A DNA stretch of 64,000 bases from a virus (IMGVR_UViG_3300010429_001449), one strand, 5' to 3'. Shown: positions 1,805-19,745, numbered from the stretch's first letter. Translations and numbers: made by a program. Notes: generated by a model not told the origin, from the sequence alone.

Positions 1805-1833
1805 TTGACATAGGGCAGAAAAGCGTATATACT
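1805..1833 (+). promoter_or_regulatory. Canonical sigma70-type promoter (17-nt spacer) of first sigma gene
   Basis: TTGACA 1805-1810, 17 nt, TATACT 1828-1833; RBS GGGAGA upstream of GTG 1885. Confidence 0.75.
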
Positions 1834-1884
1834 TACTTGTGTTGTGACGGTCAGACAGTCAAACACTTTTCAGGGAGAAACAAA

Positions 1885-2475
1885 GTGAAGAACGAAACAG
1901 TCAGGGAAGCGCAGAACGGGTCACGGACGGCGGTCGATGCGATAGTGGCGCAGTACGCGGATATGGCAAGCAATGCGGCGTACGGCGGTTTTGGGGCGGC
2001 GCGGTACGAAGACAAGCGCCAAGCGGCAATGGTCGGAATTCTGGAAGCTATCCAGACTTTCGACGCGGCGCGGGGCGCGGATTTTGGGACGCATGTCTAC
2101 TGGGCAATCAAGGGCGCGATCACGGTAGAATGCCGGGCGTACGCGGATAATATGCGCGACATGGTCGCTCGGGATGAAGACGGAGACGTCGCAACGGTCA
2201 CGGAAGTTAGCGCCGATCTCAATATGCTTTCACCGGACGCGGAAGCGGAAGCGAGAGAGACAAGCGCCGAAAATACAGTGAAGCTGCAGAACGCAATCGA
2301 CGCTATCAGGACGTTGAAAGATAGGGACGCGGAAGCGGTCACGCTCTATCTGGGTCTTGACTGCGGTCGGGCGCGGTCTTTCGCGGAAGTCGGGTCGATC
2401 ATGGGATTGACTCGGGAACGGGTCAGGCAGATTGTAGGACGCGGTCTGGAACAAATCAGGCAAGCTGCAGCGTGA
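1885..2475 (+). CDS. RNA polymerase sigma-70 family factor (sigma A of this window)
   Basis: Region 2-like QAAMVGILEAIQTFD..GADFGTHVYWAIKG; region 4 HTH SFAEVGSIMGLTRERVRQI; start placed at GTG after RBS. Confidence 0.9.
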   Translation: MKNETVREAQNGSRTAVDAIVAQYADMASNAAYGGFGAARYEDKRQAAMVGILEAIQTFDAARGADFGTHVYWAIKGAITVECRAYADNMRDMVARDEDGDVATVTEVSADLNMLSPDAEAEARETSAENTVKLQNAIDAIRTLKDRDAEAVTLYLGLDCGRARSFAEVGSIMGLTRERVRQIVGRGLEQIRQAAA

Positions 2476-2539
2476 CGCGGGGCAATGGTGAAGCGGCGCA
2501 AAAACGGGATGCTACGGAGCATCCCGTTTTTATGTACGG

Positions 2540-2985
2540 GTCAGGCGCGGAGCGGGTCACGGTCACGGCGGCGCGGGGCAATGGTCAGGCGGTCACGCGG
2601 GGCGGCGGTCAGGGGGTCAGGCAATCACGGAAGCGGGGCGGCGGCGGTCAGGCAATACGGGGCGCGGGGCGGGGTCAGGGGCAAACAAGCGGGGCGGGGC
2701 AATGGTTCAGGGTCAGGCGGCGCGGAACGGGTCACGGCGGGGCGCGTACGCGGTCAGGCGGTCAGGGTCAGGCGCGGGGCGGAACGGGGGGTCAGGGTCA
2801 GGCGGTCACGGCGGAACGGAAGCGGGGCGCGGTCAGTCAGGCGCGGCGGGGTCACGGAACGGACGGCGGCGGGGTCAGGCGCGGGGGTCAGGGAGACGGA
2901 GTCGAGCGGGTCACGCGGCGGGGCGGCGAGGGGCGGTCAGCCGAGCGAGAAGCGATTGATAATCGCCAGGAGGGGCCAGGTCAGC
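2540..2985 (+). repeat. Second GGTCA-rich, G-skewed repeat block
   Basis: Repeated GGTCAGG/GGTCACG and GCGGAACGG; no credible coding signal. Confidence 0.75.
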
Positions 2986-3376
2986 GGGGCGAGAGACGCC
3001 AGGACGCGGCGCGGGGGCGTTCGGGTCGGAACCAGGACGGGGGCCAGGACGGGATCAGCCGGAGGCATAATGCGATTGATAATCGTCACGCCGGACGGGG
3101 GCCGGGGCGGGTTCCAGGGGGCAGACTAGGTCGGCGGCAGAACGGGGCATACCGGCAGGGGCAATCCTAACGGACGGGGGCAAGCGGGGGCGGCAGAACG
3201 GCGGCGGGGCAAGTGGGGCGGGGTCAGGTGGCAGAACGGCAGGGGGCAATGGTACGTGGCGGGGCGGGGCATTGCAGGGCGGCGGGGGGCAGAATGCAGA
3301 ACGGGGCGCGGGCCGGGCGCGGGGGCGCAGTACAGGCCGTTGTCGACCGCCTGCAATGGTAGCCGATTAAAACAAC

Positions 3377-3404
3377 AAAGCCCCGTCCGCAGACAGGGCT
3401 TTGT
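3377..3404 (-). terminator. Intrinsic terminator
   Basis: AAAGCCC...GGGCTTT hairpin just downstream of minus-strand gene ending 3427. Confidence 0.65.
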
Positions 3405-3426
3405 TACTCCGCGCAGTTGCCAGCGG

Positions 3427-3795
3427 CTATTCCTCTTCGCGTTGCGCGGCGCATTCTTCGCAAGCGGCTTCAGCCGCTTCAACGCAATCGCCGAAACAAC
3501 CCAGGCGGAATTCGTTGTTTTCCGTATCGTAGACAATGGTCGTCTGGTACGTATCGCCGACGTTCAGCACAACCGCAACACAATCAAGCCAGTAGGAATC
3601 GACGTGACTGTGTTCGTGACGTACCGCGTCAGTCCCGTAGCAATGGGTGAGCGTAGCGATCTCGTTCATCACGGTATCCGGGCCGTTATGGCAACCCTTA
3701 ACCGCCTTGAGCATTGCCAGAACCTTATCCGCCTCTTCACTTGTCAGTTGAAGGGCCGTCATCAGTTCCGCCTTATCGATGCTTACCTTAGCCAC
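3427..3795 (-). CDS. Hypothetical phage protein
   Basis: GTG after GGGAGA RBS and own promoter cassette; LNVGDTYQTTIVYD motif. Confidence 0.8.
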   Translation of the reverse strand: MAKVSIDKAELMTALQLTSEEADKVLAMLKAVKGCHNGPDTVMNEIATLTHCYGTDAVRHEHSHVDSYWLDCVAVVLNVGDTYQTTIVYDTENNEFRLGCFGDCVEAAEAACEECAAQREEE

Positions 3796-4032
3796 TTTGC
3801 AATCTCCCTGAAAAGTAATGGTTGACTGTCCAGCACTATCCTTAATATAACAGAACATTAGGCTATGTCAAGAGACTTTCCAGAAATATTTTTACGCAAT
3901 AACAAGCGGCGCGGAACGGGACAGGTTAGACAACGGTAGGGCGGGGCGCGGAACAAGCGGCGGCGGGGCGGGGCTATAGCCTGGCGCGGCAAGACAACAG
4001 ACAGGTCCGTAGCGGGAGACGACAGACGTTGC

Positions 4033-4137
4033 GCGGAGCGGTAGCGGAGCGGTAGCGGAGCGGTAGCGGAGCGGTAGCGGAGCGGTAGCGGAGCGGTAGC
4101 GGAGCGGTAGCGGAGCGGTAGCGGAGCGGTAGCGGAG
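4033..4137 (+). repeat. Perfect tandem repeat (GCGGAGCGGTA) x9.5
   Basis: Nine identical 11-mers 4033-4131 plus a partial unit. Confidence 0.97.
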
Positions 4138-4446
4138 AACCGGACGCGGAACGGAGTCCGGCGGGGCGCGGGGACGCGGACGCCACGCCGATTGATAATC
4201 CCGTCGGATACGCCAGGAGGAGCCAGGAGGAGCTAGGCCAGGGAAGAGCCAGGAGGCAGGATTGATAATCGTCAGCCCTCTGGCGCGGTGCGGACGCGGC
4301 GGCCAGGGGGTCAAGCGTCGGCGGAATCGGCGGTCGGCGGGGCCGGGGCCGGGCTGTACGGGGTCGGGGGTAGGGTCGGGGCGTCCGTACAAAAAGAACC
4401 CCCGGCGGGGTTAGGGCCGGGGGTTTGTGGCCGTGCGAGTCAATGG

Positions 4447-4758
4447 TCAGGCCGTGACGCCAAACAACGTATCGACCAGCGTATCCGTTGCGGCGGACAG
4501 TGCGATGACGGCGGATTGCGCGTGACGCGCAATCCAGCGGCGGGCCGCGTCTTCACTCTCGAATTGCTTTTCAGCGGAGATTACGCGGCGGACGCGGCCA
4601 CGGTCAAAGTCGGCGGAATAACCGTAGCGTTGCGCCGTGATTGTGCGGTCATAGTTCAAGCGGAGTTCCCCGATAGAAACATCACCAGCGAAGCAATCCC
4701 GCGAATCACCAAGCCTAACAAGGGGTCTGTTGATCGACCACGAAAACGATACTGACAT
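4447..4758 (-). CDS. Hypothetical protein
   Basis: ATG with GAGGAG RBS; terminator-like hairpin at 4391-4428. Confidence 0.75.
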   Translation of the reverse strand: MSVSFSWSINRPLVRLGDSRDCFAGDVSIGELRLNYDRTITAQRYGYSADFDRGRVRRVISAEKQFESEDAARRWIARHAQSAVIALSAATDTLVDTLFGVTA

Positions 4759-4809
4759 GGTAAGCTCCTCGAAAAGAAACGGGGACCGGTCTCCCAGTCC
4801 CCTAGATGG

Positions 4810-5097
4810 TTAGCTAAGGCCACTGGCCACTTCAATGGCACGGCGGCCTTGTTCCTCAATGGCCTCGTCCAGCGGGTCATAGAGACTCCGCAGATAGGCG
4901 CGGGCCGCGTCCGGGTCTTCCCGCTCTAACAGACGGACGCGGCGCATAAGATCGTTGCGCCGTGACAGTGCGACGCCGACGTCGGCGTCTTCGGCCACAA
5001 TAGCCTGCAGCAGGGCGTTGTCGCGTCCACAGACAACGTCGTAACCGATTTCATGATCCAAGCGGTTAAGCTCATCGTAAAGGTCGAAAAGTTCCAC
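4810..5097 (-). CDS. Hypothetical protein (acidic, helical)
   Basis: GTG after cassette RBS TTTTTGGGAGA. Confidence 0.8.
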   Translation of the reverse strand: MELFDLYDELNRLDHEIGYDVVCGRDNALLQAIVAEDADVGVALSRRNDLMRRVRLLEREDPDAARAYLRSLYDPLDEAIEEQGRRAIEVASGLS

Positions 5098-5682
5098 GGT
5101 TATCTCCCAAAAAGGTTGTCTGTCCACTACACTTAATATAACAGCAATCAAGCCAATGTCAAGAGAGTTTCCGAGATTATTTCAGATATTTTTACGCAAT
5201 GGTTGATAGGCCGTTTCTCAGACTGGTCTCCGCGTGATAGTCGGTGTGTTGCGTTCCGCACTAACAGACCGCGCAGACGCGGTTGTCGACCGGAATCCGG
5301 TAGCCGCGTCAATAGAGATACAAGCGGTCATTACAAATCCGGTAGACGGCGGGGGAAGTCTTTTCGGGGTCGGCGCGGCCTGGGTGCGGCGGCGCGGCGG
5401 CCCGCTTCGACGTCGACGTCTATTGAAAATCGCGATCCCCAGCAGGGAGGGGGACGAGCAACGGGCTTGGACTCCGTCGCAGACTCAGTCAACAGCGGGG
5501 GCAGATTGAAAATCGCCACACCCCGCCAGGCAAGCGGACGAGCGGGGCGGCGCACTAGGGCGCAAGGGCGGGATACATCTAGGCGGGGCCGGGGTTAGGG
5601 TTCAAGCATTGCAAGGGACGGATAAACGGCCAATGTTGCGCGGGACGATATGTCCCGCGCAACAATGGTTGACGCGCAACGG

Positions 5683-5907
5683 CTACAGAACGAACGGCTG
5701 CAGCCGCGCACGGCGGACAATCCACGTCCTGACATATTGCGCGGGAAGGGCCGCGCCGGGGGTATGCTCGTCCTGATAGGCGGATAACGGTATCCATGTA
5801 TCATCCCGGCTATCGGCGGAAAATGCCAGCTTGATTGCCTTATCGCTGACTTCCAGTACTTCCGCGTATGCGCGTACCCGCGCCCAATCCTGAGTGATGG
5901 TAGTCAT
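5683..5907 (-). CDS. Hypothetical small protein
   Basis: ATG after GCCGGAG RBS of second-class leader; SDKAI..WIPLS pattern. Confidence 0.75.
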   Translation of the reverse strand: MTTITQDWARVRAYAEVLEVSDKAIKLAFSADSRDDTWIPLSAYQDEHTPGAALPAQYVRTWIVRRARLQPFVL

Positions 5908-5913
5908 AGTTGA

Positions 5914-5980
5914 CTCCGGCGGGGGGTTAATTTGTCCCGCTCTATAAGACGATACGGACGGCGGAAAAGAATCTGACAAG
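5914..5980 (-). promoter_or_regulatory. Second-class promoter/leader, copy 1
   Basis: CTTGTCAGATT-N8-CCGTCCGTAT..TATAGAG..CGGGA..TTAACCCCCCGCCGGAG; matches 7245-7313. Confidence 0.7.
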
Positions 5981-6120
5981 CGGCACGGAATTAAAATCCC
6001 CGTCGAGAACCGATAGGGGGCGCGTACAGACAACGAAGCTATAGCATACGCGGCGGAACATCAACGCGGCGGCGGACGCAATGCGGCGCACTGTACGCCG
6101 CGCAATGGTCGAGTTAAAAC

Positions 6121-6152
6121 AAAAAAGCCCTATCCAGCGGATAGGGCTTTTT
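6121..6152. terminator. Bidirectional intrinsic terminator
   Basis: AAAAAAGCCCTATCC-AGC-GGATAGGGCTTTTT. Confidence 0.85.
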
Positions 6153-6163
6153 GTATTCCGCCG

Positions 6164-6532
6164 TTATGGTTCGCGGGGGTCGACCGCTTCCATAACAAGT
6201 TCCTTGCCCAAGCTGACATAGTAGAGAACCGCCGTAGCTTCCGCGCCGTCAATCCACGCATAGTTACGCGGACGATACGTTACGGCGCGGCGGTTCAATG
6301 CCTTGCTGATAAGGCACAGAAGCAATCCCTTGCCATCATCCCGGAACGTAATGGTGCAGGGGATATGCCGCAGATAGAAACGGGGTCCGCGTCCGCGGTC
6401 CGCTTCCGTTGAAACGTCCAGCTTTTCCGCGTCCGCATGCGCTTCAAGCGCAGTTTCAACAGCGGCCACGACCTCGTCAATGGTCATGCTAGACGTTACG
6501 TTGACTTCGATGTTTTCCGTTGCAATCGTCAT
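6164..6532 (-). CDS. Hypothetical protein
   Basis: ATG after cassette RBS; terminator downstream. Confidence 0.8.
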   Translation of the reverse strand: MTIATENIEVNVTSSMTIDEVVAAVETALEAHADAEKLDVSTEADRGRGPRFYLRHIPCTITFRDDGKGLLLCLISKALNRRAVTYRPRNYAWIDGAEATAVLYYVSLGKELVMEAVDPREP

Positions 6533-6855
6533 TCTGACTTCTCCCGAAAAGAGGAATGTTGTCCGCGTCACTATCCTTAATATAACAGCACAGCGGCCTA
6601 TGTCAAGAGATTTTCCAGAAATATTTTTACGCAAAGACAAGCGGCGGCGGGACGGGGTCGGGACGGGAACGGACGGCGGGTATGCAGTTTGCGCGAAGGG
6701 CGGGACGGTTGCCTAGACAACGGCGGGGCGGCGGAGACTATCCCCCGGCGGAGCAACCGCAAGACGCAGTCGCGCCGCGACGCCGCCGGGGGTCGACCGC
6801 CTGGCGGGAGCCGATTGATAATCGCGCCCCACCTGGAGGGATCAGCCCACTCTGC

Positions 6856-6915
6856 GCAAAATATTATGCTTAAAAGTGTGTTAAACTTCGCACTGTTTTA
6901 AGCATAATATTTTGC
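6856..6915. repeat. 60-bp AT-rich inverted repeat element, copy 1
   Basis: GCAAAATATTATGCTTAAAA-N20-TTTTAAGCATAATATTTTGC, perfect 20-bp arms; second copy at 30575-30634. Confidence 0.92.
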
Positions 6916-6986
6916 TTAGCGACGAGGCGGGGGCTTGGAAATGTGCGGTCGGGGGCCGGGTCGTCTGCGCCAGGGCGGGGTCTGGC

Positions 6987-7238
6987 TTATTTGCGCCGTC
7001 GTTTCTTGTCGGCGGCGCATCGCTGGCAGTAATAATAACCGTCCGGGCCATACCAGACCATGTCGGGAGTTAAGTCCGGTTCTCCGCAATGGTCACAACT
7101 GAGACGTTGCGAAGCGCAACATTGCTCAACGCAACGCTCCGCTTGCCAGAACGTATCATACCGCGTTCCGCAATAGGAACACGTACAGACGCGCCCGTCA
7201 ACCGTTATCCTTCCGTCCTGAGTAACATAAGTCTTCAT
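6987..7238 (-). CDS. Small Cys-rich (zinc-finger-like) protein
   Basis: CSYC, CxxxC, CDHC, CQRC motifs; RBS GCCGGAG. Confidence 0.75.
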   Translation of the reverse strand: MKTYVTQDGRITVDGRVCTCSYCGTRYDTFWQAERCVEQCCASQRLSCDHCGEPDLTPDMVWYGPDGYYYCQRCAADKKRRRK

Positions 7239-7244
7239 CCGAAT

Positions 7245-7313
7245 CTCCGGCGGGGGTTAAGTTTTCCCGCGTCTCTATAGACCTATACGGACGGGCGCTA
7301 CAAATCTGACAAG
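7245..7313 (-). promoter_or_regulatory. Second-class promoter/leader, copy 2
   Basis: Shares all conserved blocks with 5914-5980. Confidence 0.7.
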
Positions 7314-7416
7314 AGAGTCACAGAATCTTTTTCGGGCCGCGCCGGGCGCAATGGTACACAAAAAAAAGCCCGCAACCCCTTGCGGGGTCTGCAGGCTTGT
7401 TTTGTTCGCTGTACGG

Positions 7417-7707
7417 CTACAGTTCCACCAACAGACAACCCTTGCCCGCTTGGGCGGGTAATGGTTCAACCGCCGCCCACAGTGCGCGGGCCGCACCGGG
7501 GTTGCGGGAGTCTGTTCCCGACCAGAACGTCACGACTTCCCGACGGTCATCATTGTAAATGGCGACTTCACCGTCCAGTTCCGGGCCGTTGCCTCTGACA
7601 GCAACCGTCGCCTTGCGAAACGCGGCTGCAGCGTCCACTTTCTCCGGGTGTTCCGTGCGCGAGACTACCGCGCCGAAACGGTCTTTTGTTTCAACTGAGT
7701 ACATCAT
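7417..7707 (-). CDS. Hypothetical protein
   Basis: ATG after AAGGGAGA; follows the 7715-7978 gene; terminator at about 7359-7404. Confidence 0.75.
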   Translation of the reverse strand: MMYSVETKDRFGAVVSRTEHPEKVDAAAAFRKATVAVRGNGPELDGEVAIYNDDRREVVTFWSGTDSRNPGAARALWAAVEPLPAQAGKGCLLVEL

Positions 7708-7714
7708 TTCTCCC

Positions 7715-7978
7715 TTAGACAATGGTAGCAATGAAACGGTCGATCTTGCTGTTCAATGCCGCGCTTCCGCAAGCAAGACAATGGTCCTCATCTTCCCACG
7801 CTTCCGCGAGTTCCCACGCATCCGCTTCCGTGAGTTCAACAACCCACGTGCCGTCTTCCGCGTCGCTCTCTCGCATGGCTTGCGAGAGTAAGTCCGACGT
7901 GAGATACCGTCCGCCGTGCCAGAAGATAGCTTCCGCTTCGCTGGCATCAAGAGTCAGGGTGTAAGCGTACCTTGCCAC
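7715..7978 (-). CDS. Hypothetical acidic protein
   Basis: GTG after cassette RBS. Confidence 0.8.
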   Translation of the reverse strand: MARYAYTLTLDASEAEAIFWHGGRYLTSDLLSQAMRESDAEDGTWVVELTEADAWELAEAWEDEDHCLACGSAALNSKIDRFIATIV

Positions 7979-8372
7979 GTTTCGATCTCCCAAAAAGAAT
8001 CTGGAATGTCCTGCACTACTGTTAATATAACAGCGGCGCAATCAATGTCAAGAGTATTTTCTGAAATATTTTGCGAGTGTGCGGGGCTTAGCGGAAAGTG
8101 TGCGGGCCTAGCCGTAAGAGTGTGCGCCGTGCGCGAAGACGTGCGCGGGGCCGGGCCTAGCCGAGCGGCGCAGAACGGGGGCCGGTTGGAAATCGCTACC
8201 CGGTACCGGGGGCGAGACGACGAGTCGCCGCGCCAGGATAATCGAGAGGGCGCGGGTCGGATTGGAAATCACGTGCCCTACCAGGCGGGGGCGGGGCCGC
8301 GACAACTGGATTTGTAACCCTGACAACCCGATTTGTAGAGCGGGGGGAATTGCCGGAGCAATGGTACAAGAG

Positions 8373-8400
8373 AAAAGCCCCGGAGAGTATCCGGGGCTTT
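8373..8400 (-). terminator. Intrinsic terminator
   Basis: AAAAGCCCCGGA-GAGTA-TCCGGGGCTTT. Confidence 0.8.
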
Positions 8401-8417
8401 GGGGAGTTGCGCCGCGA

Positions 8418-8708: not shown

Positions 8709-8895
8709 TGTCCAGTCTCCCGAAAAAAGGTTTGAAGTCCAGCACTACCGTTAATATAACAGCGGGCCGCGCAATGTCAAGAGTCTTTTTCCAGAATCTT
8801 AGAGATTTCTTTTTGAGCAATGGTCAAGGGCGTACAGCCGTTAAACGACAAAGCCCCGGTTTAGGGCCGGGGCTTTGCGTAGTGCTGTCTGTAGG

Positions 8896-9267: not shown

Positions 9268-9633
9268 CGTTCCGTCTCCACAAAAGAAATGAATGTCTGT
9301 CACTACTGTTATTATAACAGCACGGCGTCCAGCGTCAAGAGAGTATTTCCGAAGATTCATCCTATTTCCGCGACGCCGGGAGACGGCCTGAGTTCGGGCA
9401 GCGAGACGGCGAGACGCTGACACCCAGTTGTCAGGGCCGGGCGGGGCCGAGGGCGGCGATTGATAATCGAGGCACTGAGGGCGGGTCGGGGGCGGAAATC
9501 CGGCGGCGTTGCTCGACGAAGAGCGGGGATTGATAATCGCGTCCCTCCCCCGGCGCGGGGCCGGGGCCGTTAAATGAACCCGGCCCGTCCGGAAAGTCCG
9601 GAGCGGGCCGGGAGAATGTCGTTACGCGGGCCG

Positions 9634-9909: not shown

Positions 9910-10268
9910 GGCGTCATTCTCCCAAAAAAGGTTGTCTGTCCTGCACTACCCTTAATATAACGGCGGGCCGTTCAATGTCAAGAGTCTTTTTTGTGTTGAC
10001 TGCGAAATACTTTTGACGGGCCGTATAAGGGCCGCGACGGGCCGCTATCCGGCAATGGTCCTGATATGCTCTAGCGGGCCGTTATGGGCCGTTATGGGCC
10101 GTTGCCGGGCCGCAAGGCGCAAGGCGCAATAAACGCCGCTATCGGGCCGCGCAACGGGCCGCTAAAAAAAAAATCCCGGAATTCCCGGAAAAGAGTCTTG
10201 ACATAGGCGGAATTGCTGTTATATTAAGGGTAGTGCTGGACAGACAACCTTTTTGGGAGAATGACAGA

Positions 10269-10832
10269 ATGACAGAGAACGAAACAATCAGGGCCGCGCA
10301 AAGCGGCGACAAAGGCGCAATGGACGCGCTGGTCGAAAAGTACACTCCGCTTGCAATGAGACTGGCGCTAGGCGGATTCGGCAAGGCGTCAAAGGCGGAC
10401 AAAAAGCAAGCCGCTTTGACGGGATTGCTTGACGCGATCCATACCTTTGACGAGACAAAGGCCAATGGCGGCGCATTCGGAACGCATGCGTACTGGACAA
10501 TCAAAGGCGCTGTTACGGTCGAATGCCGCAACTACGCCAAGCCGTTAGAGAACGCCGTTACGTCGGATGACGAATTGGCGACGGAAGTCTACGCCGATCC
10601 GGACGGGATATCTCCGGCGAAAAACGCCGAACGCAACGAAGATATCGCAAGGGCCGTTGCCAGCCTGGACAAGGCGACGGAACGGGAACGGGAAGCAACG
10701 CGCTTGTTCCTCGGGCTGGACAATGAGCTTGACCAAAGGTCATTGGTTGAAGTCGCCGGGATGATGAATGTTTCCCGGCAACGCGCAAAGCAACTGGTCG
10801 ACAAGGGCCTTGCGGCGATGCGGGCCGCGTAA
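10269..10832 (+). CDS. RNA polymerase sigma-70 family factor (sigma B; paralog of 1885-2475)
   Basis: FGTHAYWTIKGAVTVECRNYA aligns with sigma A; region 4 SLVEVAGMMNVSRQRAKQL. Confidence 0.9.
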   Translation: MTENETIRAAQSGDKGAMDALVEKYTPLAMRLALGGFGKASKADKKQAALTGLLDAIHTFDETKANGGAFGTHAYWTIKGAVTVECRNYAKPLENAVTSDDELATEVYADPDGISPAKNAERNEDIARAVASLDKATEREREATRLFLGLDNELDQRSLVEVAGMMNVSRQRAKQLVDKGLAAMRAA

Positions 10833-12351: not shown

Positions 12352-12408
12352 GGTTCTGAGTCTCCACAGAAAAGGTTGCAGGGGCCGGTTTCCCAGCCCC
12401 CAAAGAAA

Positions 12409-12594: not shown

Positions 12595-12700
12595 TCTCGT
12601 CTCTCCACAAAAGGTTGTTTCTGTCCGCGTCACTACTGTTATTATAACAGCGGCGCGGCCACTGTCAAGAGTTTATTTCAGGAATTCTTGACGGGTGTAC

Positions 12701-12735: not shown

Positions 12736-12748
12736 AATGGTTGTTGCG

Positions 12749-13099: not shown

Positions 13100-13499
13100 T
13101 TTCGTTTCTCCACAAAAGAAATGTCTGTCACTATCTCTAATATAACAGCGTCGCGGCCAATGTCAAGAGTCTTTCCAGAATATTTTTACGGATTTGTTTC
13201 ATCCCCCGGACGGCGGGTCGCGCAAGGCTAGGCGCGAACGGGCGGCGCGGGGTGGTAGTTTCCTGGCGGTGGTCCTGGCAGTGATCCTGGCGGTCGGGCG
13301 GCGCTCGGCGGAGCGATTGAAAATGTCGGGGGGACGGCGAACGAGGCGGTTTTCCGCGTCGGGGGCGCGGAGCGAGGGAAGGATTGGAAATCGGCGTCCC
13401 CCTGCCAGGCCAGGCCGCAACTTGGGTTGTAATCGTCGGGGGTTAAAGCAAAAAGCCCCGGCTTGTTAGGGCCGGGGCTTAGTGCCAGTGGCGGGACAA

Positions 13500-13955
13500 T
13501 CAGTCGGCTTTCAGTCGCCGACAGTGGAGAATGTCAGTATCGCGCCCGTAGCGGACGCCGTGCCAGCGTTTCCCGTCGGGGCCGATGAACCACAGATCAA
13601 GGCGCTCTCTTGCAATGTTGTGCTTTCCGTGAGTCCACGTCTTGACGCGGAACATAAGCGTGCCGGGCCAGTTCCCCACGCGGGAGACGGTCTTGTCGTT
13701 GTTGTCAGTTGCTCCGCAGACTACGCGCAAGCCGTCGGGGTTTGTGGGGGTGCGAGTTCCCGCAAAGTAGTAAAGCGTCGCCTTGCCGGTCTGACGCATA
13801 TCTTCAGCGTCACGCTTGCCGCAACACTCATAACAGACTTTCGCGCCGTCGCGGGCCACGCCGTAACCCGTGCCGCAAGAATTCGCGGGGGGTTCAATGG
13901 TCTTGCCGCAGTCCGCACAAACTACGGGGGTTGTTGTTGCCGTTGTCATGGTCAT
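13500..13955 (-). CDS. Hypothetical phage protein with Cys motifs
   Basis: CADC, CYECC, GNWPG; cassette promoter/RBS; terminator at 13450-13480. Confidence 0.85.
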   Translation of the reverse strand: MTMTTATTTPVVCADCGKTIEPPANSCGTGYGVARDGAKVCYECCGKRDAEDMRQTGKATLYYFAGTRTPTNPDGLRVVCGATDNNDKTVSRVGNWPGTLMFRVKTWTHGKHNIARERLDLWFIGPDGKRWHGVRYGRDTDILHCRRLKAD

Positions 13956-14092
13956 TGTCTCCACAAAAGGTTGATTGTCCACTATCCTTATTATAACAGT
14001 GGCCGCGCCAGCGTCAAGAGTCTTTTCAGGAATATTTCCTTAAACGCAAGCGGGGATAGTCCGCAAGGGACTATCCCCGACAATGGCCGCGC

Positions 14093-14485
14093 CTAGTCCT
14101 CGTCAGGGCGCATAAGGGTTATTACGGGTTCCCCGTTGTCGCCGGGGCCGATCATCATCTTGACCGTGTAATAGGTCTTGCGCCCGTTGTGCATGATGAG
14201 ATTGTAAAGGCGGGCGCTGTCATCGCCGCCGCGCCGCGCCGCAAGACGCCCCATATACAGAACATCCCAAAGACGCCCGTCATAGTCCTGAAAAGACTTG
14301 CTGGCGGGAATGTCTTTTATGTCCGCGTGAAGGGCCGCAGTAATGGCCACAGGAACGCGAAAGCCCGCTTCGCGGGCCGTTTCGGAAACGTCAATCAGCG
14401 TTCCGTCTTCAATGGCTTGTTCCCGCGAATAGCACGAAATCACTTCCCCGAACACGTCGCGCATTGCGTCATCATTTTCCGGCAT
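14093..14485 (-). CDS. DUF6573-like protein
   Basis: YSREQAIEDGTLIDVSETAREAGFRVPVAIT..GRLWDVL..PGDNGEPVITLMRPDED; family recalled from motif. Confidence 0.75.
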   Translation of the reverse strand: MPENDDAMRDVFGEVISCYSREQAIEDGTLIDVSETAREAGFRVPVAITAALHADIKDIPASKSFQDYDGRLWDVLYMGRLAARRGGDDSARLYNLIMHNGRKTYYTVKMMIGPGDNGEPVITLMRPDED

Positions 14486-14652
14486 GGTCTTTGTCTCCAC
14501 AAAAGGTTGATTGCCTGCCACTATCTCTATTATAACAATGGCCGCGCCAATGTCAAGAGTCTTTTTTATTTTCTATTTACGCTCTTGACACGGCCCGCGT
14601 CGCTGTTATATTAAGGGTAGTGGACAATCAACCTTTTTTGGAGAATGACGCA

Positions 14653-15018
14653 ATGACCAACAAAGAAACACAACGGGAAATACTCTGCTGTATATGGTAC
14701 GGCGAACACGCCGACCTGGACAGACTCCGCGCCGAAAAGGGCGTCGACGTCAAAGCGCCGGGATGGTGGAACATCACGCCGGGCGTCGACTTTGTTCACG
14801 CCGATATCCGCATAGGCGGGCGCGTACTCAAGACAGTCGGCGTTACGTTCTCTCTTGACGGCTACGCGCCAGCGGAACGGCCCGACGTGATAGTGTGCGC
14901 GGAAGACGGCGGTCGGACGGAATTCGAGGGTATCCCGGTTATCTGCCTGACGCCGTACATCGACAAAGACCTGGCAAGCCTGACGGACTGGGTCGGGAAG
15001 CAACCGGACAGGCCCTAG
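14653..15018 (+). CDS. Hypothetical protein
   Basis: Divergent cassette promoter at 14585 and RBS. Confidence 0.8.
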   Translation: MTNKETQREILCCIWYGEHADLDRLRAEKGVDVKAPGWWNITPGVDFVHADIRIGGRVLKTVGVTFSLDGYAPAERPDVIVCAEDGGRTEFEGIPVICLTPYIDKDLASLTDWVGKQPDRP

Positions 15019-15557
15019 TCCCCGACAGGGGGCGGCCCCGCCGAAGGGGGCGCGGGGCGAGGGGGCGATTGAAAATCGGCAGGGGGTCGGGATACGAGCG
15101 GGAACAGAGCAAACGAGAGCATCTCACGGCGTCGTTTCTCGGCTTCCTCCTGATAGCGACGAAAGCGGAGCGCGGTATCATCGTCGAGCTTAAGTTCGGG
15201 CCACTCAAGTTGCGTAGGCGTCTTTTGGGGTAGCGCGGCAGCCCCGTCTACGCGCATGAACAACGACATCGACGGCGGCAGTTCGGGCGGCGGGTGCAAG
15301 TACCACTCATGCTCCAGCCAGGCCGGGGCAGCGGCGGCAAGAGGGCTGGGGCCGTAAGTCGCACGACGGCGGCGCAAAGCCAAGTCCCGGCGAACCTCAA
15401 GGACGCCGTAGGCGTAGAACGCGAACGGCAGAGCGCACGACATAAGCGCGGCCTGCCACGAGACTTGACGGCGAAACGCCGACGCCGTCACCAAAAGCAC
15501 AGGGACGATAAGCAACACGAACAAAGAGAACTCAACGAAGAGTCGCTCGGCGAACAT
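15015..15557 (-). CDS. Possible membrane protein
   Basis: Two N-terminal hydrophobic stretches; no cassette RBS, start uncertain. Confidence 0.4.
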   Translation of the reverse strand: MFAERLFVEFSLFVLLIVPVLLVTASAFRRQVSWQAALMSCALPFAFYAYGVLEVRRDLALRRRRATYGPSPLAAAAPAWLEHEWYLHPPPELPPSMSLFMRVDGAAALPQKTPTQLEWPELKLDDDTALRFRRYQEEAEKRRREMLSFALFPLVSRPPADFQSPPRPAPPSAGPPPVGD

Positions 15558-15692
15558 CCGCGCTTTCCCGCTAGACAACATTGATAATCTTGCTCCTGTC
15601 TTGTGTTCGTTTGGAAATCGGTTTCGAGAACCCCGGCGTTTTTCGGTAAGACGCCAGGGTTGTTTTTCATTCTCCGCCGGAGCGACGCGGGG

Positions 15693-16346
15693 TTATACCG
15701 CGCCGCCCTTCTTGACGCCCTTCAACGCGGCGTCAATGGCGTCGAACAAGCCTATCGTGCGGTCGTCATTAACCAGCTTGTCGAGCGCGTCATTGAATGC
15801 CGTCCACTGAGCAACGGTCAGCTTGCTAAGTTTGTCGACGCGCCGCTCCAGAAATTCCGGCTTGTCGTCCCGAACATCATACCACTCGCTCCGCAGTTCG
15901 TCGTCACTGTCTGCGACGGCGAAGAGGGCGTCTTCCACTTCCTTCTCGTCGCGGGGGTTGTCCGGGCCGGGCAATGGCGGGAATTCGTCAAAGTATCCGG
16001 GGTCTTCAACAACGGTTCCCTTCTCTACGCAATCGTCGAGAAAGAGTCTTACGCAGTCCGCAACGCCGTCGCAACCTTCCGTATTAGCCCCGCAAGCGTT
16101 GTGCTGGCAGTCAATGTCTCTTGGCTCGTCATCAACGCCGGGGCAACGCCAGCCGAAAGACTCCGCAATAGACGGATAATCGTCGTCTGTCTGGATAAGA
16201 ACGGTGTTCTTTTCGTCGCGGGTGTTCCAGTCATAGTGCCCTTCCCCCGCTTCCGGGTTCGTTACCCTGCATATGAACAGACAGCAGGGCGCGTAGGACG
16301 GGTCACGGTCCAGCGCAATCAACGTCGTCGTCTTGGTCCTAGCCAT
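15693..16346 (-). CDS. Hypothetical acidic protein
   Basis: Cassette promoter/RBS. Confidence 0.85.
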   Translation of the reverse strand: MARTKTTTLIALDRDPSYAPCCLFICRVTNPEAGEGHYDWNTRDEKNTVLIQTDDDYPSIAESFGWRCPGVDDEPRDIDCQHNACGANTEGCDGVADCVRLFLDDCVEKGTVVEDPGYFDEFPPLPGPDNPRDEKEVEDALFAVADSDDELRSEWYDVRDDKPEFLERRVDKLSKLTVAQWTAFNDALDKLVNDDRTIGLFDAIDAALKGVKKGGAV

Positions 16347-16437
16347 GAGTCTATCTCCAAAAAAAAAGAGGTCTGTCACTACTGTTAATATAACAGCGGC
16401 CACGCCAATGTCAAGAGTCTTTTCTGTTTTTTCTGTC

Positions 16438-16585
16438 AAAAGAATAGGGGCCGGGCGGCAACCCGGCCCCAATGTCCAAGAGGACTGCCTGCAGGCTACA
16501 GGGACGGGAAACGTCCCGTTCAGAGATCAACGTACGCCGGGGAGAACCGGCCCTCTGCCCTGCCTGCGCCGTGACACTTGAGAAC
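16438..16585 (-). ncRNA. Candidate structured small RNA (about 150 nt)
   Basis: Own promoter TTGACA-N16-TATACT (16592-16619), no RBS, nested helices, ends in GGGGCCGGG/CCCGGCCCC hairpin plus TATTCTTTT. Confidence 0.6.
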
Positions 16586-16888
16586 AACCCCAGTATAACG
16601 AAGGTAAGCGGTCTGTCAAGGGGATTGGAAATCGCGCCCCCTGCCCCCGTAAACAAAAAGGGCCGCCCCGCGTCCGGAGCGGCCCTGTCCAGTCAATTAA
16701 TTTGAGACAAAAGAAAGTAAGTAGTATCACATGGTTTCCTCCCGGCAAGGCATTGTTGCCTAACAAGGCGCTGCTTGCTCCGCAACAAGGCGATCTGCTT
16801 CTCTCGCGTATTTCGAGGCGGTGCGAGTTCAACCGCCCTACTTTACACAATATCGCGCTTGTCTTGGGGTGCTTAACGCGCAGTCCTG

Positions 16889-17140
16889 TTATCTCGATTG
16901 GGGGGCTTCGCCGAAGTCCTCCACCAGGTGTTCCAACGCTCTAGCGTGATCCCACGCCAGATTGAAGGCGTGAACAAGGGTGTCATCGACGTCCCTATCC
17001 ATGTCCATGTACGACTTGGACGCGGCGTCCATAGCCTGCGAAAGGGCATCCGCCACGTCGTTAGCTACCTTAGCCTGTTCGGCAAGGCGCGTCTTGATGT
17101 CCGCTGTCTCTGGACGCTTCGGCGTCCGTACGTCCGTCAT
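16889..17140 (-). CDS. Hypothetical protein
   Basis: Cassette promoter/RBS TTTTGAGGAGA. Confidence 0.8.
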   Translation of the reverse strand: MTDVRTPKRPETADIKTRLAEQAKVANDVADALSQAMDAASKSYMDMDRDVDDTLVHAFNLAWDHARALEHLVEDFGEAPQSR

Positions 17141-17223
17141 TTTGTTCTCCTCAAAAGAAATTGGCCGTCCTACTGTTATTATAACAGCAAGACGGCCAGT
17201 GTCAAGGGAGAACCGAGAAAAGG

Positions 17224-17661
17224 TTAATCGCCGATGGCTTTGACGGTCACGATAAGCCGCTTGCCGTCGACCTTGACGGTATCCAGCACGACAGAGCCGG
17301 AGATTACCCAGTCGTTGCAACGCCGCCTATGGCACTCATCGCAGTCGCCGACGCAAGTGCGCTCGCTCAAGCCGACGCCGCCGAAGTCGGAACGGATTAC
17401 GTCCGCTTCATGCTCCGGGGTATTAGCGCTGCCGCTGACGTCGATGGCGACGGTCAGGTCCCCTTCCGCTTCCACGTAAGGGATATGGGTATGCCCCTCT
17501 TCGCTTCCGTAAGCGTAGGCAAAGCCCGAGTCCCCACTGTCCAGACTGAAGGCGTCCATGTTGTCTTCAATGGCCTGTTCCAGCGCGTAAATGGCCGCGC
17601 CGTCATCGCGGCGGTAGTCCGCCACAACTTCAACTATCTGATGGGTCTTGTTCATCGGCAT
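17224..17661 (-). CDS. Hypothetical acidic protein
   Basis: Cassette promoter/RBS. Confidence 0.8.
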   Translation of the reverse strand: MPMNKTHQIVEVVADYRRDDGAAIYALEQAIEDNMDAFSLDSGDSGFAYAYGSEEGHTHIPYVEAEGDLTVAIDVSGSANTPEHEADVIRSDFGGVGLSERTCVGDCDECHRRRCNDWVISGSVVLDTVKVDGKRLIVTVKAIGD

Positions 17662-17716
17662 GTCTCCAAAAAGGTTGACTGTCACTATCCTTAATATAAC
17701 AGCGCATTGGCCGATG

Positions 17717-18601
17717 TCAAGAGACTATTTCGGATTTCTTTTCTGAAAAGTCGTATTGCTGGAAGTCCGACGGGTTACGGTCGAGGGTGGCGGCTATACG
17801 GTTACGCGCCGCGCCTACGAATGCGGGGTCGATCTCAAAGCCGGTGAAGCTAACGCCGAGTTCGGAACACGCGAGAGCGGTTGAACCTATGCCGCAGAAG
17901 GGGTCAAGAACATGCTTGGTCTTGGCGAGGCCGTGCAACTTGATGCACGTTCGGGGCAAGGATATAGGGAACGACGCCGGATGCGGGCGGTCTTTGTCCT
18001 TTTCCTGGATCGTATCGTAGGGAAGGAACCAAGCGTTGCCCCGGCAATGCAACGGCTGTTTCGCGCCCCAGCGCTCGATGTTCGCGGGGTCGGCGTAGGG
18101 GACGCCGATTGATAATCTGTCTAGGGGCACTTCGCCCGTTTTCGTCAGGTGGAAGATGAACTCGTGGCAGGCGTTGAGGAACCGAGGGCTGTTGATTGGT
18201 TGGTAGTGGCCGTGTACGACTTCGGGAGACTTCTCGTTAGCGCCGGGGACGGCGATGGACTTCACCCACAGAATGAGGTTCTGCAACTTGAAGTACTGCC
18301 GGGCGACTTGCATGATCTCGAAGGGGCCGAGGGGACTGACGGGAACGCCGCCGATGTTGAGGAAGAAAGAGCCGTCGTCCGCTAGGCGCGAGGCCACGCA
18401 CGTCAACCAGCCGTGACACCAGTCGAGATAGTCTAGGCGGCTGATGCTGTCGTTGTAAGTGCGGTAGCCCGTTCCGACGTTGTACGGAGGGGATGTAACG
18501 ACTACGTCGTAGACCGCCGAGTCCTGTTTCATTCCGTCCACACAGTCGCCGACGATGAGGCGGTGCGTAACGCCGCCGTGCTGCAGTTCGTATGCGTTCA
18601 T
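17717..18601 (-). CDS. DNA methyltransferase, N4-C/N6-A, beta class (orphan)
   Basis: Catalytic VTSPPYN precedes SAM-binding VLDPFCGIGST; HPASFP motif. Confidence 0.93.
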   Translation of the reverse strand: MNAYELQHGGVTHRLIVGDCVDGMKQDSAVYDVVVTSPPYNVGTGYRTYNDSISRLDYLDWCHGWLTCVASRLADDGSFFLNIGGVPVSPLGPFEIMQVARQYFKLQNLILWVKSIAVPGANEKSPEVVHGHYQPINSPRFLNACHEFIFHLTKTGEVPLDRLSIGVPYADPANIERWGAKQPLHCRGNAWFLPYDTIQEKDKDRPHPASFPISLPRTCIKLHGLAKTKHVLDPFCGIGSTALACSELGVSFTGFEIDPAFVGAARNRIAATLDRNPSDFQQYDFSEKKSEIVS

Positions 18602-18615
18602 GCGCTTGGTAATCC

Positions 18616-19095
18616 TTACTTGGGGGTTGAAGTTCCAACTTTAGCGCGTCGCGCCAGTTGGCGCAACCGTTGTTTGAAAATGTCTGAGGGGGAGTCCGGG
18701 GATTTCGGCGGGCGTTCCTTTCGTTGTCGCGGGGTAGATGTTTCGCGGGTAGATGTCGAGTAATCCCAGGGCAGACAGAAGCGAGCAAAGCCGGTAATCC
18801 GTGCGCCGCGCCCGTCTTCAATGCGGTCGATCTCTTGCTTCAATGTCTTTTTCAGGGCGTCGGGAACTTTCCGGGCGCTGATATGCTCAATGGTCTCAGT
18901 GCGCCGCAAGGCGCGTAGTCCGGCCATATCGCTCTTGGTCAACTGTCCACGTATCACGTCGACGGGGCCGCAAGAACCGGTTTCCCGCGCCGCGCCCGTC
19001 TGGACCGGGACGTACACAATGTCGCCCTTGCCGACAAGTATTGCTTCAGTGGCAAGGGCGACATAGAACCGTAACCGTCCGCTGTTGTCGTTCAT
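18616..19095 (-). CDS. Hypothetical protein
   Basis: ATGA overlap with upstream sigma gene. Confidence 0.7.
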   Translation of the reverse strand: MNDNSGRLRFYVALATEAILVGKGDIVYVPVQTGAARETGSCGPVDVIRGQLTKSDMAGLRALRRTETIEHISARKVPDALKKTLKQEIDRIEDGRGARITGFARFCLPWDYSTSTRETSTPRQRKERPPKSPDSPSDIFKQRLRQLARRAKVGTSTPK

Positions 19096-19745
19096 GCTAT
19101 GGCAAGTCCGGCAACACCCTGCAGCTTGCGGAGTGCGCTTGTTTCGATCTGGCGTACCCGTTCCCGCGTAAGACCGCCTAGGGCGTTGCCTATTTCATCA
19201 AGAGTCGATGTTTGACCCCGATAGCCGTTAAGCCCGTAGCGTCGCTCCAGAACGTCCGCTTCGCGCTTAGTAAGCCGTTCCTTGATCGCGTTCGCAAGCA
19301 AGGTCGCGCTTTCGTTGAACAATGCAGACTTAGCCGGACTGCGATGGTCGACCGGGCCGTACGTATCAAACAGATAGTTGCTGATTTCACCGTGCGACAA
19401 GCCTATCTCGCTGACGGGGATTTCACAAACCCCGTCGTTTTCAGCGACGGCGCGACGTACCCGAGCAACAAGCCATTGCACGGCGTACGTCGTGAAACGC
19501 CCTTCCGCTTCATTGTACTCGCTTCCCTTGTCTCCGGGCGTAACGATATGGTCTATCGCTTCCGCCAAGCCAAGCAAAGCCGCCGCTTCGCGGTCCTCGT
19601 ACGCCAAACCGCTGTTGTTGAAACGATGCGCGACGCTTCGCGCAAGGTCATAGTAAGCTACAGCGATTTCGTTCCGCGCCGCCTTGTCGCCCGCACGTAT
19701 GCGAGCAATCAACGCCTGTTCCTGTTCAACTGTCAGTCGCGCCAT
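19092..19745 (-). CDS. RNA polymerase sigma-70 family factor (sigma C; RpoD/RpoS-like regions 2 and 4)
   Basis: GDKAARNEI..LARSVAHRF..GLAEAI..RFTTYAVQW; LTKREADVLERRYGL..TLDEIG..LTRERVRQIETSALRKL. Confidence 0.92.
   Translation of the reverse strand: MARLTVEQEQALIARIRAGDKAARNEIAVAYYDLARSVAHRFNNSGLAYEDREAAALLGLAEAIDHIVTPGDKGSEYNEAEGRFTTYAVQWLVARVRRAVAENDGVCEIPVSEIGLSHGEISNYLFDTYGPVDHRSPAKSALFNESATLLANAIKERLTKREADVLERRYGLNGYRGQTSTLDEIGNALGGLTRERVRQIETSALRKLQGVAGLAIA

What the first reader, a model, noticed from the sequence alone, without database searches (positions are those of the whole stretch)
1805..19745. Three phage sigma factors and a possible 17-to-16-nt spacer switch
Seen: three compact (about 190-220 aa) sigma70-family genes. 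A (1885) and B (10269) are paralogs. A and C keep the RpoD-like recognition helix TRERVRQI, while B has SRQRAKQL. Sigma A is driven by a canonical 17-nt promoter; apart from the tentative nrdD promoter, every other TTGAC promoter I measured is 16 nt. Known: the TRERIRQI helix reads TTGACA. Inference: host RNAP first makes sigma A, whose short region 2-4 linker favours 16-nt spacing and redirects polymerase to phage cassettes; B may read a different class.
Basis: inference. Interest (0 to 1): 0.72.

Follow-up and report, generated by a model that had tools for sequence, protein, structure and literature searches.

The report
Jumbo phage sigmas, two promoter spacings
An uncultured 269-kb phage from anaerobic digesters carries three small sigma factors and about 86 near-identical promoters with a strict 16-bp spacer; one sigma gene keeps a 17-bp promoter, also in related phages, so the spacing difference is real, but which sigma reads which class is unknown.

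Summary
Three compact sigma-70-family genes exist: A 1885-2475(+), B 10269-10832(+), C 19092-19745(-). A and B are paralogs (44% identity).

TTGACA-N16-TAnnnT occurs 43 times in the window and 80 times in the genome, against 0-5 at any other spacing. These "class I" promoters share a long consensus with an extended -10 (G-14/T-13) and sit a median 42 nt before genes or tRNAs.

Sigma A is a monocistronic unit with a TTGACA-17-TATACT promoter lacking the TG. The same exception precedes A-type sigma genes in two other metagenomic lineages whose neighbouring genes use 16 bp. The 80-kb structural block has no class I promoter inside it, only looser 17-bp sites.

A-type sigmas in the relatives have lost the RpoD-like -35 helix while the class I TTGACA stays invariant. 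None of the phage sigmas has the sigma-3 residues that read TG. A published short-linker ECF sigma prefers 17 bp.

My best reading (about 0.45) is that host primary sigma fires class I, including sigma B and C, and that sigma A and the late genes are scheduled separately. This is a new variant of phage sigma cascades and needs in vitro transcription.

The parts
1805..1833 (+). Sigma A promoter (class II): TTGACA, 17-nt spacer, TATACT, no TG before the -10
   Evidence: The same architecture precedes A-type sigma genes in L006-L012.
1885..2475 (+). Sigma A gene, 196 aa, GTG start after GGGAGA. Two-domain sigma (sigma-2, about 27-aa linker, sigma-4). Helix LTRERVRQI.
2503..2533 (+). Intrinsic terminator-like hairpin plus T-run just after sigma A, making it a monocistronic unit
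   Evidence: read directly from the sequence
1051..1652 (+). Array of same-orientation GGTCA-containing repeats upstream of sigma A. A second array lies downstream at 2547-2923.
10198..10225 (+). Class I promoter of sigma B: TTGACA-16-TATATT with TGT before the -10
10269..10832 (+). Sigma B gene, 187 aa, paralog of A (44% identity). Helix VSRQRAKQL. Followed by a Mg-chelatase-like ATPase gene at 10892-11566, as in relative L005.
19788..19815 (-). Class I promoter of sigma C: TTGACA-16-TATATT
19092..19745 (-). Sigma C gene, 217 aa. RpoD/RpoS-like regions 2 and 4 with sigma-3 deleted. Helix LTRERVRQIE. Its ortholog P0158 (51% identity) is in relative L014.
3844..3871 (-). Class I promoter (16 nt)
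5135..5162 (-). Class I promoter (16 nt)
6579..6606 (-). Class I promoter (16 nt)
8024..8051 (-). Class I promoter (16 nt)
8753..8780 (-). Class I promoter (16 nt)
9311..9338 (-). Class I promoter (16 nt, TTGACG)
9954..9981 (-). Class I promoter (16 nt)
12641..12668 (-). Class I promoter (16 nt)
13139..13166 (-). Class I promoter (16 nt)
13990..14017 (-). Class I promoter (16 nt, TTGACG)
14529..14556 (-). Class I promoter (16 nt)
14585..14612 (+). Class I promoter (16 nt), divergent from the one at 14556
16387..16414 (-). Class I promoter (16 nt)
16592..16619 (-). 16-nt TTGACA...TATACT site without TG; atypical flanks
17178..17205 (-). Class I promoter (16 nt) inside a 17-bp-stem palindrome centred on the -10
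17693..17720 (-). Class I promoter (16 nt)
19863..19890 (+). Class I promoter (16 nt), divergent from sigma C's
20376..61122 (.). Thirty further class I promoters in the rest of the window (49 in the window in all). Their -10 is TATAAT between about 20 and 46 kb.
41477..41505 (-). Tentative class II site before nrdD: TTGACT-17-TATAGT

Best explanation
The window is the left arm of a 269-kb myovirus-type jumbo phage from anaerobic digesters. The phage has no RNA polymerase genes among the proteins I scanned and encodes three compact sigma-70-family proteins that lack sigma-3.

Its genome uses two sigma-70-like promoter architectures:
- Class I (about 86 copies): C-TTGACA-t, exactly 16 bp including gc-T-G-T, then TATA(A/T/C)T, then AA..GTAG. 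It lies a median 42 nt in front of small early-type genes, replication genes, tRNA genes and the sigma B and sigma C genes.
- Class II (about a dozen): TTGaca, 17 bp, TAnAnT, without TG and more degenerate. It lies in front of sigma A, inside the structural block, and before nrdD and an IS605 TnpB gene.

Most likely mechanism:
1. The host primary-sigma holoenzyme fires the class I promoters on entry. They match every element a primary sigma reads.
2. Sigma B and sigma C are therefore early products.
3. The sigma A unit is deliberately kept out of class I by one extra base between G-14 and the -10. This destroys the extended -10 and resets the spacer, giving sigma A a different strength or schedule.
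4. The phage sigmas then take core polymerase to the weaker 17-bp or late promoters.

Shown: the genes, the two architectures, their positions, and their conservation in relatives. Inferred: which sigma reads which class, and the timing.
For: Placement: 70 of 86 promoters lie within 60 nt of the next same-strand gene or tRNA, nine of them 13-54 nt before a tRNA gene. No class I promoter lies between genome 68.5 and 148.7 kb, the block that holds the tail sheath and tape measure genes. In that block TTGnnn-N17-TAnnnT occurs 6 times, against a mean of about 1 at the other spacings (range 0-4, the 4 at 22 nt), in 4.1 kb of gaps.

Class I matches all the primary-sigma elements: -35 TTGACA; G-14 in 86 of 87; T-15 in 64 of 87; the -10; T-1/A+1.

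The phage sigmas lack sigma-3. The AlphaFold model of A shows sigma-2 (residues 1-89), a low-confidence linker and sigma-4. The PDB alignments skip SigA residues of about 208-282 for A and 214-269 for C. C has Ser and Gly where sigma-70 has His455 and Glu458.

The class I -35 is invariant in three lineages, while the A/B-type recognition helices diverge.

Precedent, from my own knowledge: T4, T5 and SPO1 early promoters are near-consensus host promoters, and E. coli rrnB P1 is a very strong 16-bp-spacer promoter.
Against: Class I conserves positions that primary sigmas are not known to read: C just upstream of the -35 (85/87), C-16, T-13 and A-6. Its spacer length is essentially invariant. Published work attributes such rigidity to alternative or ECF sigmas rather than primary sigmas (10.1101/534826).

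Class II looks like an ordinary degenerate host promoter. It accompanies nrdD and TnpB, genes that may have been acquired from cells (my inference, not tested), which fits the opposite assignment.

No separate promoter consensus for the phage sigmas was found, so their targets remain unidentified. The host is unknown, so its own spacer preference could not be checked.
Confidence: 0.45

Rival explanations
1. Host holoenzyme reads only the 17-bp class, making sigma A first. Sigma A, with its RpoD-like helix, then reads the 16-bp class I promoters and so turns on the early and middle genes, the tRNAs, and sigma B and C.
For: Sigma A's 17-bp TG-less promoter is a conserved exception in three lineages. 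Sigma A is an insulated monocistronic unit. In this phage sigma A keeps TRERVRQI. Class I has a rigid spacer and extra conserved positions, which is typical of alternative-sigma promoters. 17-bp sites accompany nrdD and TnpB, genes that may have been acquired from cells.
Against: The A-type orthologs have SFQRVEQ and APGSAKY in the recognition helix, while class I keeps cTTGACAt in those phages. Sigma A has no sigma-3 to read the invariant G-14. A short-linker ECF sigma prefers 17 bp, so linker length does not predict 16 bp. The whole programme would hang on one or a few host-readable promoters. 17-bp sites are also the only sigma-70-like sites in the structural block.
Confidence: 0.22
2. Sigma C is a sigma-3-less copy of a primary sigma, and it is the phage reader of TTGACA promoters. 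Host sigma starts class I transcription. Sigma C then amplifies or maintains it, or reads the 17-bp class including sigma A's promoter, once host sigma is limiting or inactivated.
For: Sigma C aligns to SigA/RpoS across region 2 and region 4 with only sigma-3 missing. Of the three types, only the C-type keeps a near-RpoD helix in both lineages where it is known: TRERVRQIE here and SHERVRQIE in the relative. It is itself under a class I promoter in both lineages.
Against: Only two C-type sequences are known. Region 2.3-2.4 is altered (W433 is replaced; Q437 and T440 are replaced). There is no sigma-3.0 His/Glu for the TG. There is no direct evidence of any kind.
Confidence: 0.12
3. The 16/17 difference has no regulatory meaning. 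Class I promoters are copies spread by cassette duplication, so their spacing is inherited, and sigma A's promoter merely carries a neutral 1-bp insertion.
For: Class I promoters come with a conserved 5' leader and small ORFs. They show regional homogenisation of the -10 variant: TATATT at 0-21 kb, TATAAT at 21-47 kb, TATACT at 148-268 kb. This suggests spread by duplication or recombination.
Against: Class I spacer sequences vary freely at about 8 positions while the length stays fixed. The 17-bp, TG-less form before the A-type sigma recurs in three lineages whose sigma proteins are only 37-42% identical and whose spacer sequences differ. The B-type and C-type genes keep 16 bp.
Confidence: 0.06

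Closest known systems
Bacillus phage SPO1 sigma cascade (host sigma-A early, gp28 middle, gp33/34 late)
   Same: The phage has no RNA polymerase genes among the proteins scanned. It carries several compact phage sigma genes in the early region, strong host-like early promoters, and a separate structural block without them (PMC13401047 abstract).
   Different: As I recall it, SPO1 middle and late promoters have consensus sequences quite unlike TTGACA/TATAAT. Here only two architectures are visible. Both are sigma-70-like and differ by 1 bp of spacer and the TG. Two of the three phage sigmas keep the RpoD -35 helix. The proteins are not detectably closer to SPO1 sigmas than to any other sigma.
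T4-type early promoters and their promoter/stem-loop cassettes (PeSL); from my own knowledge
   Same: There are many near-identical early promoters that are stronger than typical host promoters. Each serves a small ORF. Conservation extends beyond the hexamers. Some are coupled to hairpins.
   Different: T4 uses gp55/gp33 and MotA/AsiA rather than two-domain sigma-70 proteins with region 4. As I recall, its early promoters have 17-bp spacing. No sequence relationship was tested.
ECF (group 4) sigma factors
   Same: Sigma A and B share the two-domain sigma-2/sigma-4 build with a short linker. ECF promoters have strict spacer and sequence requirements (10.1101/534826).
   Different: Sigma70_ECF scores below its cut-off. 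Region 4 is closest to primary SigA. No AAC/CGT-type promoters were seen. The one ECF sigma documented in the paper I read prefers 17 bp.
Sigma factors of 'group 2' jumbo phages (Iyer et al. 2021, PMC7824862)
   Same: These jumbo phages lack their own RNA polymerase but have RpoD-like or minimal sigma factors that recruit host core.
   Different: This phage has a family A DNA polymerase, not the family B polymerase that defines that group. Its A/B sigma family has only six 50%-identity clusters among 1.8 billion proteins. There are no DNA-level or close protein matches in the phage collections searched.

Membership tests
Sigma-70 family (Pfam Sigma70_r2 + Sigma70_r4; NCBIfam TIGR02937) | Region 4 (helix-turn-helix that reads the -35) scores above the curated cut-off | tested here: met
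   A 42.7, B 26.8 and C 47.3 bits against a cut-off of 24.1
Sigma-70 family (Pfam Sigma70_r2 + Sigma70_r4; NCBIfam TIGR02937) | Region 2 (core binding and -10 reading) scores above the curated cut-off | tested here: met
   A 29.9 and C 24.1 bits against a cut-off of 24. B scores 21.6, just below. All three pass TIGR02937 (53.2, 53.7, 56.8 against 42.9).
Primary (group 1) sigma, RpoD/SigA | Regions 1.2, 3 and 3.2 are present and the equivalog score is reached | tested here: not met
   The proteins are 187-217 aa. RpoD/SigA equivalog models score 34-80 bits against cut-offs of 354-711. Sigma-3 is absent in the alignments and in the model.
Primary (group 1) sigma, RpoD/SigA | Region 4.2 recognition helix has the TRERIRQIE type | tested here: met
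   Met for A and C (LTRERVRQI). Not met for B (SRQRAKQL) or for the A-type orthologs P0010 and P0011.
ECF (group 4) sigma | Two-domain sigma-2/sigma-4 architecture | tested here: met
   AlphaFold model of sigma A: helices 2-89, a low-confidence linker at 90-116, helices 117-195
ECF (group 4) sigma | Match to the Sigma70_ECF family model | tested here: not met
   Only C matches, at 19.7 bits against a cut-off of 21.1. A and B give no hit.
Extended -10 promoters | TG one base upstream of the -10 hexamer | tested here: met
   Class I has TGT in 62 of 86 and CGT in 18 of 86, so G-14 is nearly invariant. The TG is absent from sigma A's promoter and from its counterparts in the relatives.
SPO1-type phage sigma cascade | Each phage sigma has its own distinct promoter consensus | tested here: inconclusive
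   Only two sigma-70-like architectures were found. K-mer and dyad searches of the other upstream regions gave nothing beyond tRNA, ribosome-binding-site and GC-repeat signals.
SPO1-type phage sigma cascade | Temporal order of transcription depends on the phage sigmas | not testable with these tools
   This needs time-resolved RNA data or in vitro transcription. The only RNA library available is held as contigs.

The most novel reading that the evidence does not exclude
A one-base-pair 'spacer code' divides the transcription of a jumbo phage between two holoenzymes. Host sigma reads TTGACA-17-TATACT at one conserved entry point, the sigma A gene. A compact sigma-3-less phage sigma (A, or C) that keeps the RpoD -35 helix is a spacing-specific reader of the 86 rigid 16-bp promoters. 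The phage would then redirect polymerase without changing the hexamers at all.
Probability: 0.2. Interest if true: 0.85.

Novelty: new variant of a known kind. Interest (0 to 1): 0.6.

Why it matters
Phage sigma cascades normally work by changing the promoter hexamers. Here the hexamers stay at the universal TTGACA/TATAAT consensus. The only consistent differences between the two classes are one base pair of spacer and the extended -10.

The exception sits before one particular sigma gene in three diverged phage lineages. If spacing alone sorts promoters between holoenzymes, that would be a new and very economical takeover mechanism. It would also give a clean system for studying how sigma-2 to sigma-4 geometry sets spacer preference.

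Even if host sigma reads everything, the system is useful. It offers about 86 natural, near-identical, insulated promoter cassettes and a rare family of minimal sigmas (six clusters among 1.8 billion proteins) for in vitro work.

Tried and rejected
- Close relatives in phage collections: megablast found none. tblastn gave only hits at or below 28% identity over the full length.
- IMG/VR scans with sigma A and with the family alignment found no relative.
- A scan of IMG/VR with the class I promoter pattern gave 33 single, scattered matches and no multi-copy relative.
- Host identification through the IS605 TnpB gene: the best genome match is only 34% identical, a Clostridium MAG, so there is no host call.
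- The maximum-likelihood tree of the eight sigmas separates the C-type (100/100) but does not resolve A-type from B-type. The A/B orthology therefore rests on a shared 7-residue insertion, synteny for B, and promoter type.
- The search for a third promoter consensus by k-mers and gapped dyads gave only tRNA, ribosome-binding-site and GC-repeat signals.
- The Foldseek search with the sigma A model returned only generic sigma chains at low TM-scores, so no class could be assigned.
- The fourth weak region-4 hit (genome 151.9 kb) is a generic HTH protein, not a sigma.
- Rfam found only tRNAs in the window and in the 105-125 kb locus, and nothing for the putative small RNA.
- RNA-library contigs (run X4) cover the sigma B gene and several class I units. 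None lie over sigma A. Being contigs, they give no starts, strands or levels, and nothing is concluded from the lack of cover.
- Three -10 variants as three sigma specificities: rejected. The variant is regional and is not kept at orthologous promoters in the relative.

Full report
**What the window is**

The window is bases 1158-65157 of a 268,817-bp IMG/VR virus record. The record is linear and CheckV estimates it 77% complete. GC content is about 57%.

The same DNA occurs in three anaerobic-digester metagenomes. The genome carries 45 tRNA genes. The window holds nrdD, a family A DNA polymerase, a DnaB-type helicase, a primase, a RecA-like protein and an N6/N4 methyltransferase. A tail sheath gene and a tape measure gene lie at 93-102 kb, so this is a jumbo myovirus of an anaerobe.

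Nothing similar exists at the DNA level in the phage collection. My own gene calls (382 genes, a dicodon model) show that almost everything from 22 to 263 kb is on the minus strand.

**The three sigma genes**

| Gene | Window coordinates | Length | Recognition helix |
|---|---|---|---|
| Sigma A | 1885-2475 (+) | 196 aa | LTRERVRQI |
| Sigma B | 10269-10832 (+) | 187 aa | VSRQRAKQL |
| Sigma C | 19092-19745 (-) | 217 aa | LTRERVRQI |

- All three are sigma-70-family proteins. They hit Pfam regions 2 and 4, phrog_351 and NCBIfam TIGR02937.
- None reaches any specific equivalog model.
- A and B are 44% identical. C resembles them only in region 4.
- Against solved structures, region 4 of A and C is closest to primary SigA. 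The alignments skip sigma-3.
- The AlphaFold model of A (pLDDT 79) has sigma-2 at residues 1-89, a low-confidence linker at about 90-116, and helices at 117-195.
- C keeps the 'IPV' start of region 3.0. It has Ser and Gly where sigma-70 has the His and Glu that read the extended -10 (residue roles from my own knowledge).

**The promoters: class I**

- TTGACA-N16-TAnnnT occurs 43 times in the window and 80 times in the genome, against 0-5 at any spacing from 13 to 21.
- In intergenic DNA the exact -35 gives 72 sites at 16, 4 at 17 and 2 at 18.
- The independent consensus scanner finds 19 sixteen-nt sites and one seventeen-nt site (sigma A's) among the 20 strong sites of window 1-20000.
- The consensus is long. 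It has an A-rich stretch upstream, then C (85/87), TTGACA, t, a variable region, G-C-T-G-T (G-14 in 86/87, T-13 in 83/87), TATA(A/C/T)T, A-A and then G-T-A-G.
- It is therefore a consensus -35, plus an extended -10, plus a consensus -10, with a pyrimidine/purine start 7 nt downstream.
- Of 86 class I sites, 70 have the next same-strand gene or tRNA within 60 nt (median 42). Nine directly precede tRNA genes.
- None lies between 68.5 and 148.7 kb, the structural block.

**The promoters: class II**

- Sigma A's promoter is TTGACA-17-TATACT with no TG. A hairpin plus T-run follows the gene at 2503-2533, so sigma A is a monocistronic unit.
- Measured from the -35, the conserved G sits at the same distance as in class I. 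The sigma A promoter therefore reads as a class I promoter with one extra base between that G and the -10.
- The other intergenic TTGACA-17 sites precede three things: an IS605 TnpB gene (genome 249,067); an 828-aa gene in the late block (140,677); and an apparent small RNA that ends in a terminator (106,832).
- In the late block's 4.1 kb of gaps, TTGnnn-N17-TAnnnT occurs 6 times, against a mean of about 1 at the other spacings (range 0-4, the 4 at 22 nt). One of these sites, TTGCAC-17-TAACAT, heads the block.
- nrdD has TTGACT-17-TATAGT.

**Relatives**

An exhaustive profile search of 1.84 billion representatives finds only four other clusters of the A/B family. Sigma C has one close relative. 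Their contigs come from Baltic subsurface sediment (lineage 1) and hypersaline sediment (lineage 2) and show the same system.

- In lineage 1, a 20-kb syntenic contig has 21 sixteen-nt TTGAC sites out of 25.
- Lineage 1 holds orthologs of all three sigmas: P0010, P0009 and P0158.
- The genes for P0010 (lineage 1) and P0011 (lineage 2) share a 7-residue insertion with sigma A. Both are preceded by TTGACAtagg...TATACT at 17 nt without TG, while their neighbours use 16 nt.
- The genes for P0009 and P0012 lack the insertion, like sigma B, and have 16-nt promoters. P0009 is followed by the same Mg-chelatase-like gene as sigma B.
- The sigma proteins are only 37-48% identical, and the three 17-nt spacers differ in sequence. 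The length difference therefore looks selected rather than merely inherited.
- The tree does not resolve A-type from B-type, so orthology rests on the indel, synteny and promoter type.

**Who reads what**

This cannot be settled in silico. The evidence against sigma A as the class I reader is specific.

- The recognition helix of the A-type proteins is TRERVRQ here, SFQRVEQ in lineage 1 and APGSAKY in lineage 2. B-type proteins also vary: SRQRAKQ, SRERARQ and TSARIGQ.
- The class I -35 and its flanks are identical in all three lineages.
- An invariant element needs a conserved reader. The candidates are the host primary sigma, or the C-type sigma (TRERVRQIE here, SHERVRQIE in the relative).
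- The nearly invariant G-14 calls for a sigma-3.0-type contact that none of the phage sigmas visibly has.
- The proposed link between a short linker and a 16-bp preference is not supported. The short-linker ECF sigma-H is most active at 17 bp (10.1101/534826).

- Class I has a rigid spacer. That paper notes this is typical of ECF-type rather than primary sigmas.
- Class I has extra conserved positions outside known primary-sigma contacts.
- 17-bp sites sit next to nrdD and TnpB, genes that may have been acquired from cells (my inference, not tested).

I weight the alternatives as follows:

| Reading | Weight |
|---|---|
| Host sigma reads class I; sigma A is scheduled separately | 0.45 |
| Sigma C is the phage reader of TTGACA | 0.12 |
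| The spacing difference has no function | 0.06 |
| Something not considered | the remainder |

**Comparison and novelty**

Phage sigma cascades (SPO1) and arrays of strong early promoters (T4-type) are known kinds. Three things appear new:

- the rare two-domain A/B sigma family;
- the use of two architectures that share the universal hexamers and differ by one base pair and the TG;
- the conservation of that difference at one sigma gene across lineages.

I rate this a new variant of a known kind, with interest 0.6. It would be higher if spacing alone proves to sort promoters between holoenzymes.

Noticed in passing
window 1-530 and 1051-1652, 2547-2923 (also genome 1-1157, left of the window): The left end is 73% GC and made of same-orientation short repeats. 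CGGGGAC-type arrays lie at the extreme left. GGTCA(C/G)G arrays (32 GGTCA in about 600 nt) lie just upstream of sigma A and again just downstream. The A-type sigma genes of the relatives are also flanked by G-rich repeats, though not by GGTCA. The function is unknown; possibilities are protein-binding arrays, an origin or a packaging region.
   Followed up: partly
genome 2126-31708 (window about 970-30550) and genome 268625, 268694: The motif cgATTGATAATCg (arms CGATT/AATCG around an asymmetric GAT) occurs 27 times, 26 of them on the + strand whatever the gene orientation. It sits mostly in G-rich intergenic islands of the left 30 kb and at the right end. It is also present in the related contigs (L006, L010, L022). 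It looks like an oriented protein-binding site. It also suggests that the record's two ends are contiguous.
   Followed up: partly
window 17162-17198(-), and promoters at window 32033, 33516, 36128, 36955, 42781, 43958, 44383, 44979: About ten class I promoters lie inside long palindromes centred on the -10, in which the spacer pairs with the initial transcribed region. These palindromes are followed by a T-run and are flagged as terminator-like. Self-pairing exceeds cross-pairing between promoters (permutation 0/2000). They could be combined terminator-promoter insulators or operators.
   Followed up: partly
downstream of most class I promoters, e.g. window 10226-10268, 19746-19787: There is a conserved 5' leader of about 25-35 nt (GTGACAGACAACC-TTTTGT-GGAGA type) between the start site and the start codon, shared with the relatives. 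Sigma A's leader carries a related GTGACGGTCAGACAGTCAAAC.
   Followed up: no
whole genome: The -10 variant is regional: TATATT at 0-21 kb, TATAAT at 21-47 kb and mostly TATACT at 148-268 kb. The variant is not kept at orthologous promoters in the relative, so this looks like local homogenisation rather than separate classes.
   Followed up: partly
genome 247934-249031(-), outside the window (L061:1934-3031): An IS605-family TnpB gene (OrfB_IS605, Cas12f1-like TNB and HTH domains) sits inside the phage genome in an AT-richer patch, with its own TTGACA-17-TATACT promoter. The nearest genome copy found is only 34% identical.
   Followed up: partly
genome about 106632-106832(-), outside the window (L058): TTGACA-17-TAGACT is followed by about 110 nt with no ORF, ending in a strong hairpin plus T-run. 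This is a putative small RNA inside the structural block. It has no Rfam match.
   Followed up: partly
window 47768-47841(-): ARAGORN calls a tRNA-like gene with a four-base anticodon (gtac) next to the nine-tRNA cluster. Rfam's tRNA model does not report it at the gathering score.
   Followed up: no
genome 138110-148664(-), outside the window: Four consecutive ORFs of 825-851 aa head the structural block. The three scanned (828, 825 and 851 aa) have no Pfam or PHROG match; the 849-aa ORF was not scanned.
   Followed up: no
window 16701-16916: In a metatranscriptome library the deepest contig on this window (word depth about 40, against 3-7 elsewhere) covers the 3' end and trailer of the 83-aa gene at 16889-17140(-), which is served by the palindromic class I promoter at 17205. 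Because these are contigs, this is only a hint of high expression.
   Followed up: no
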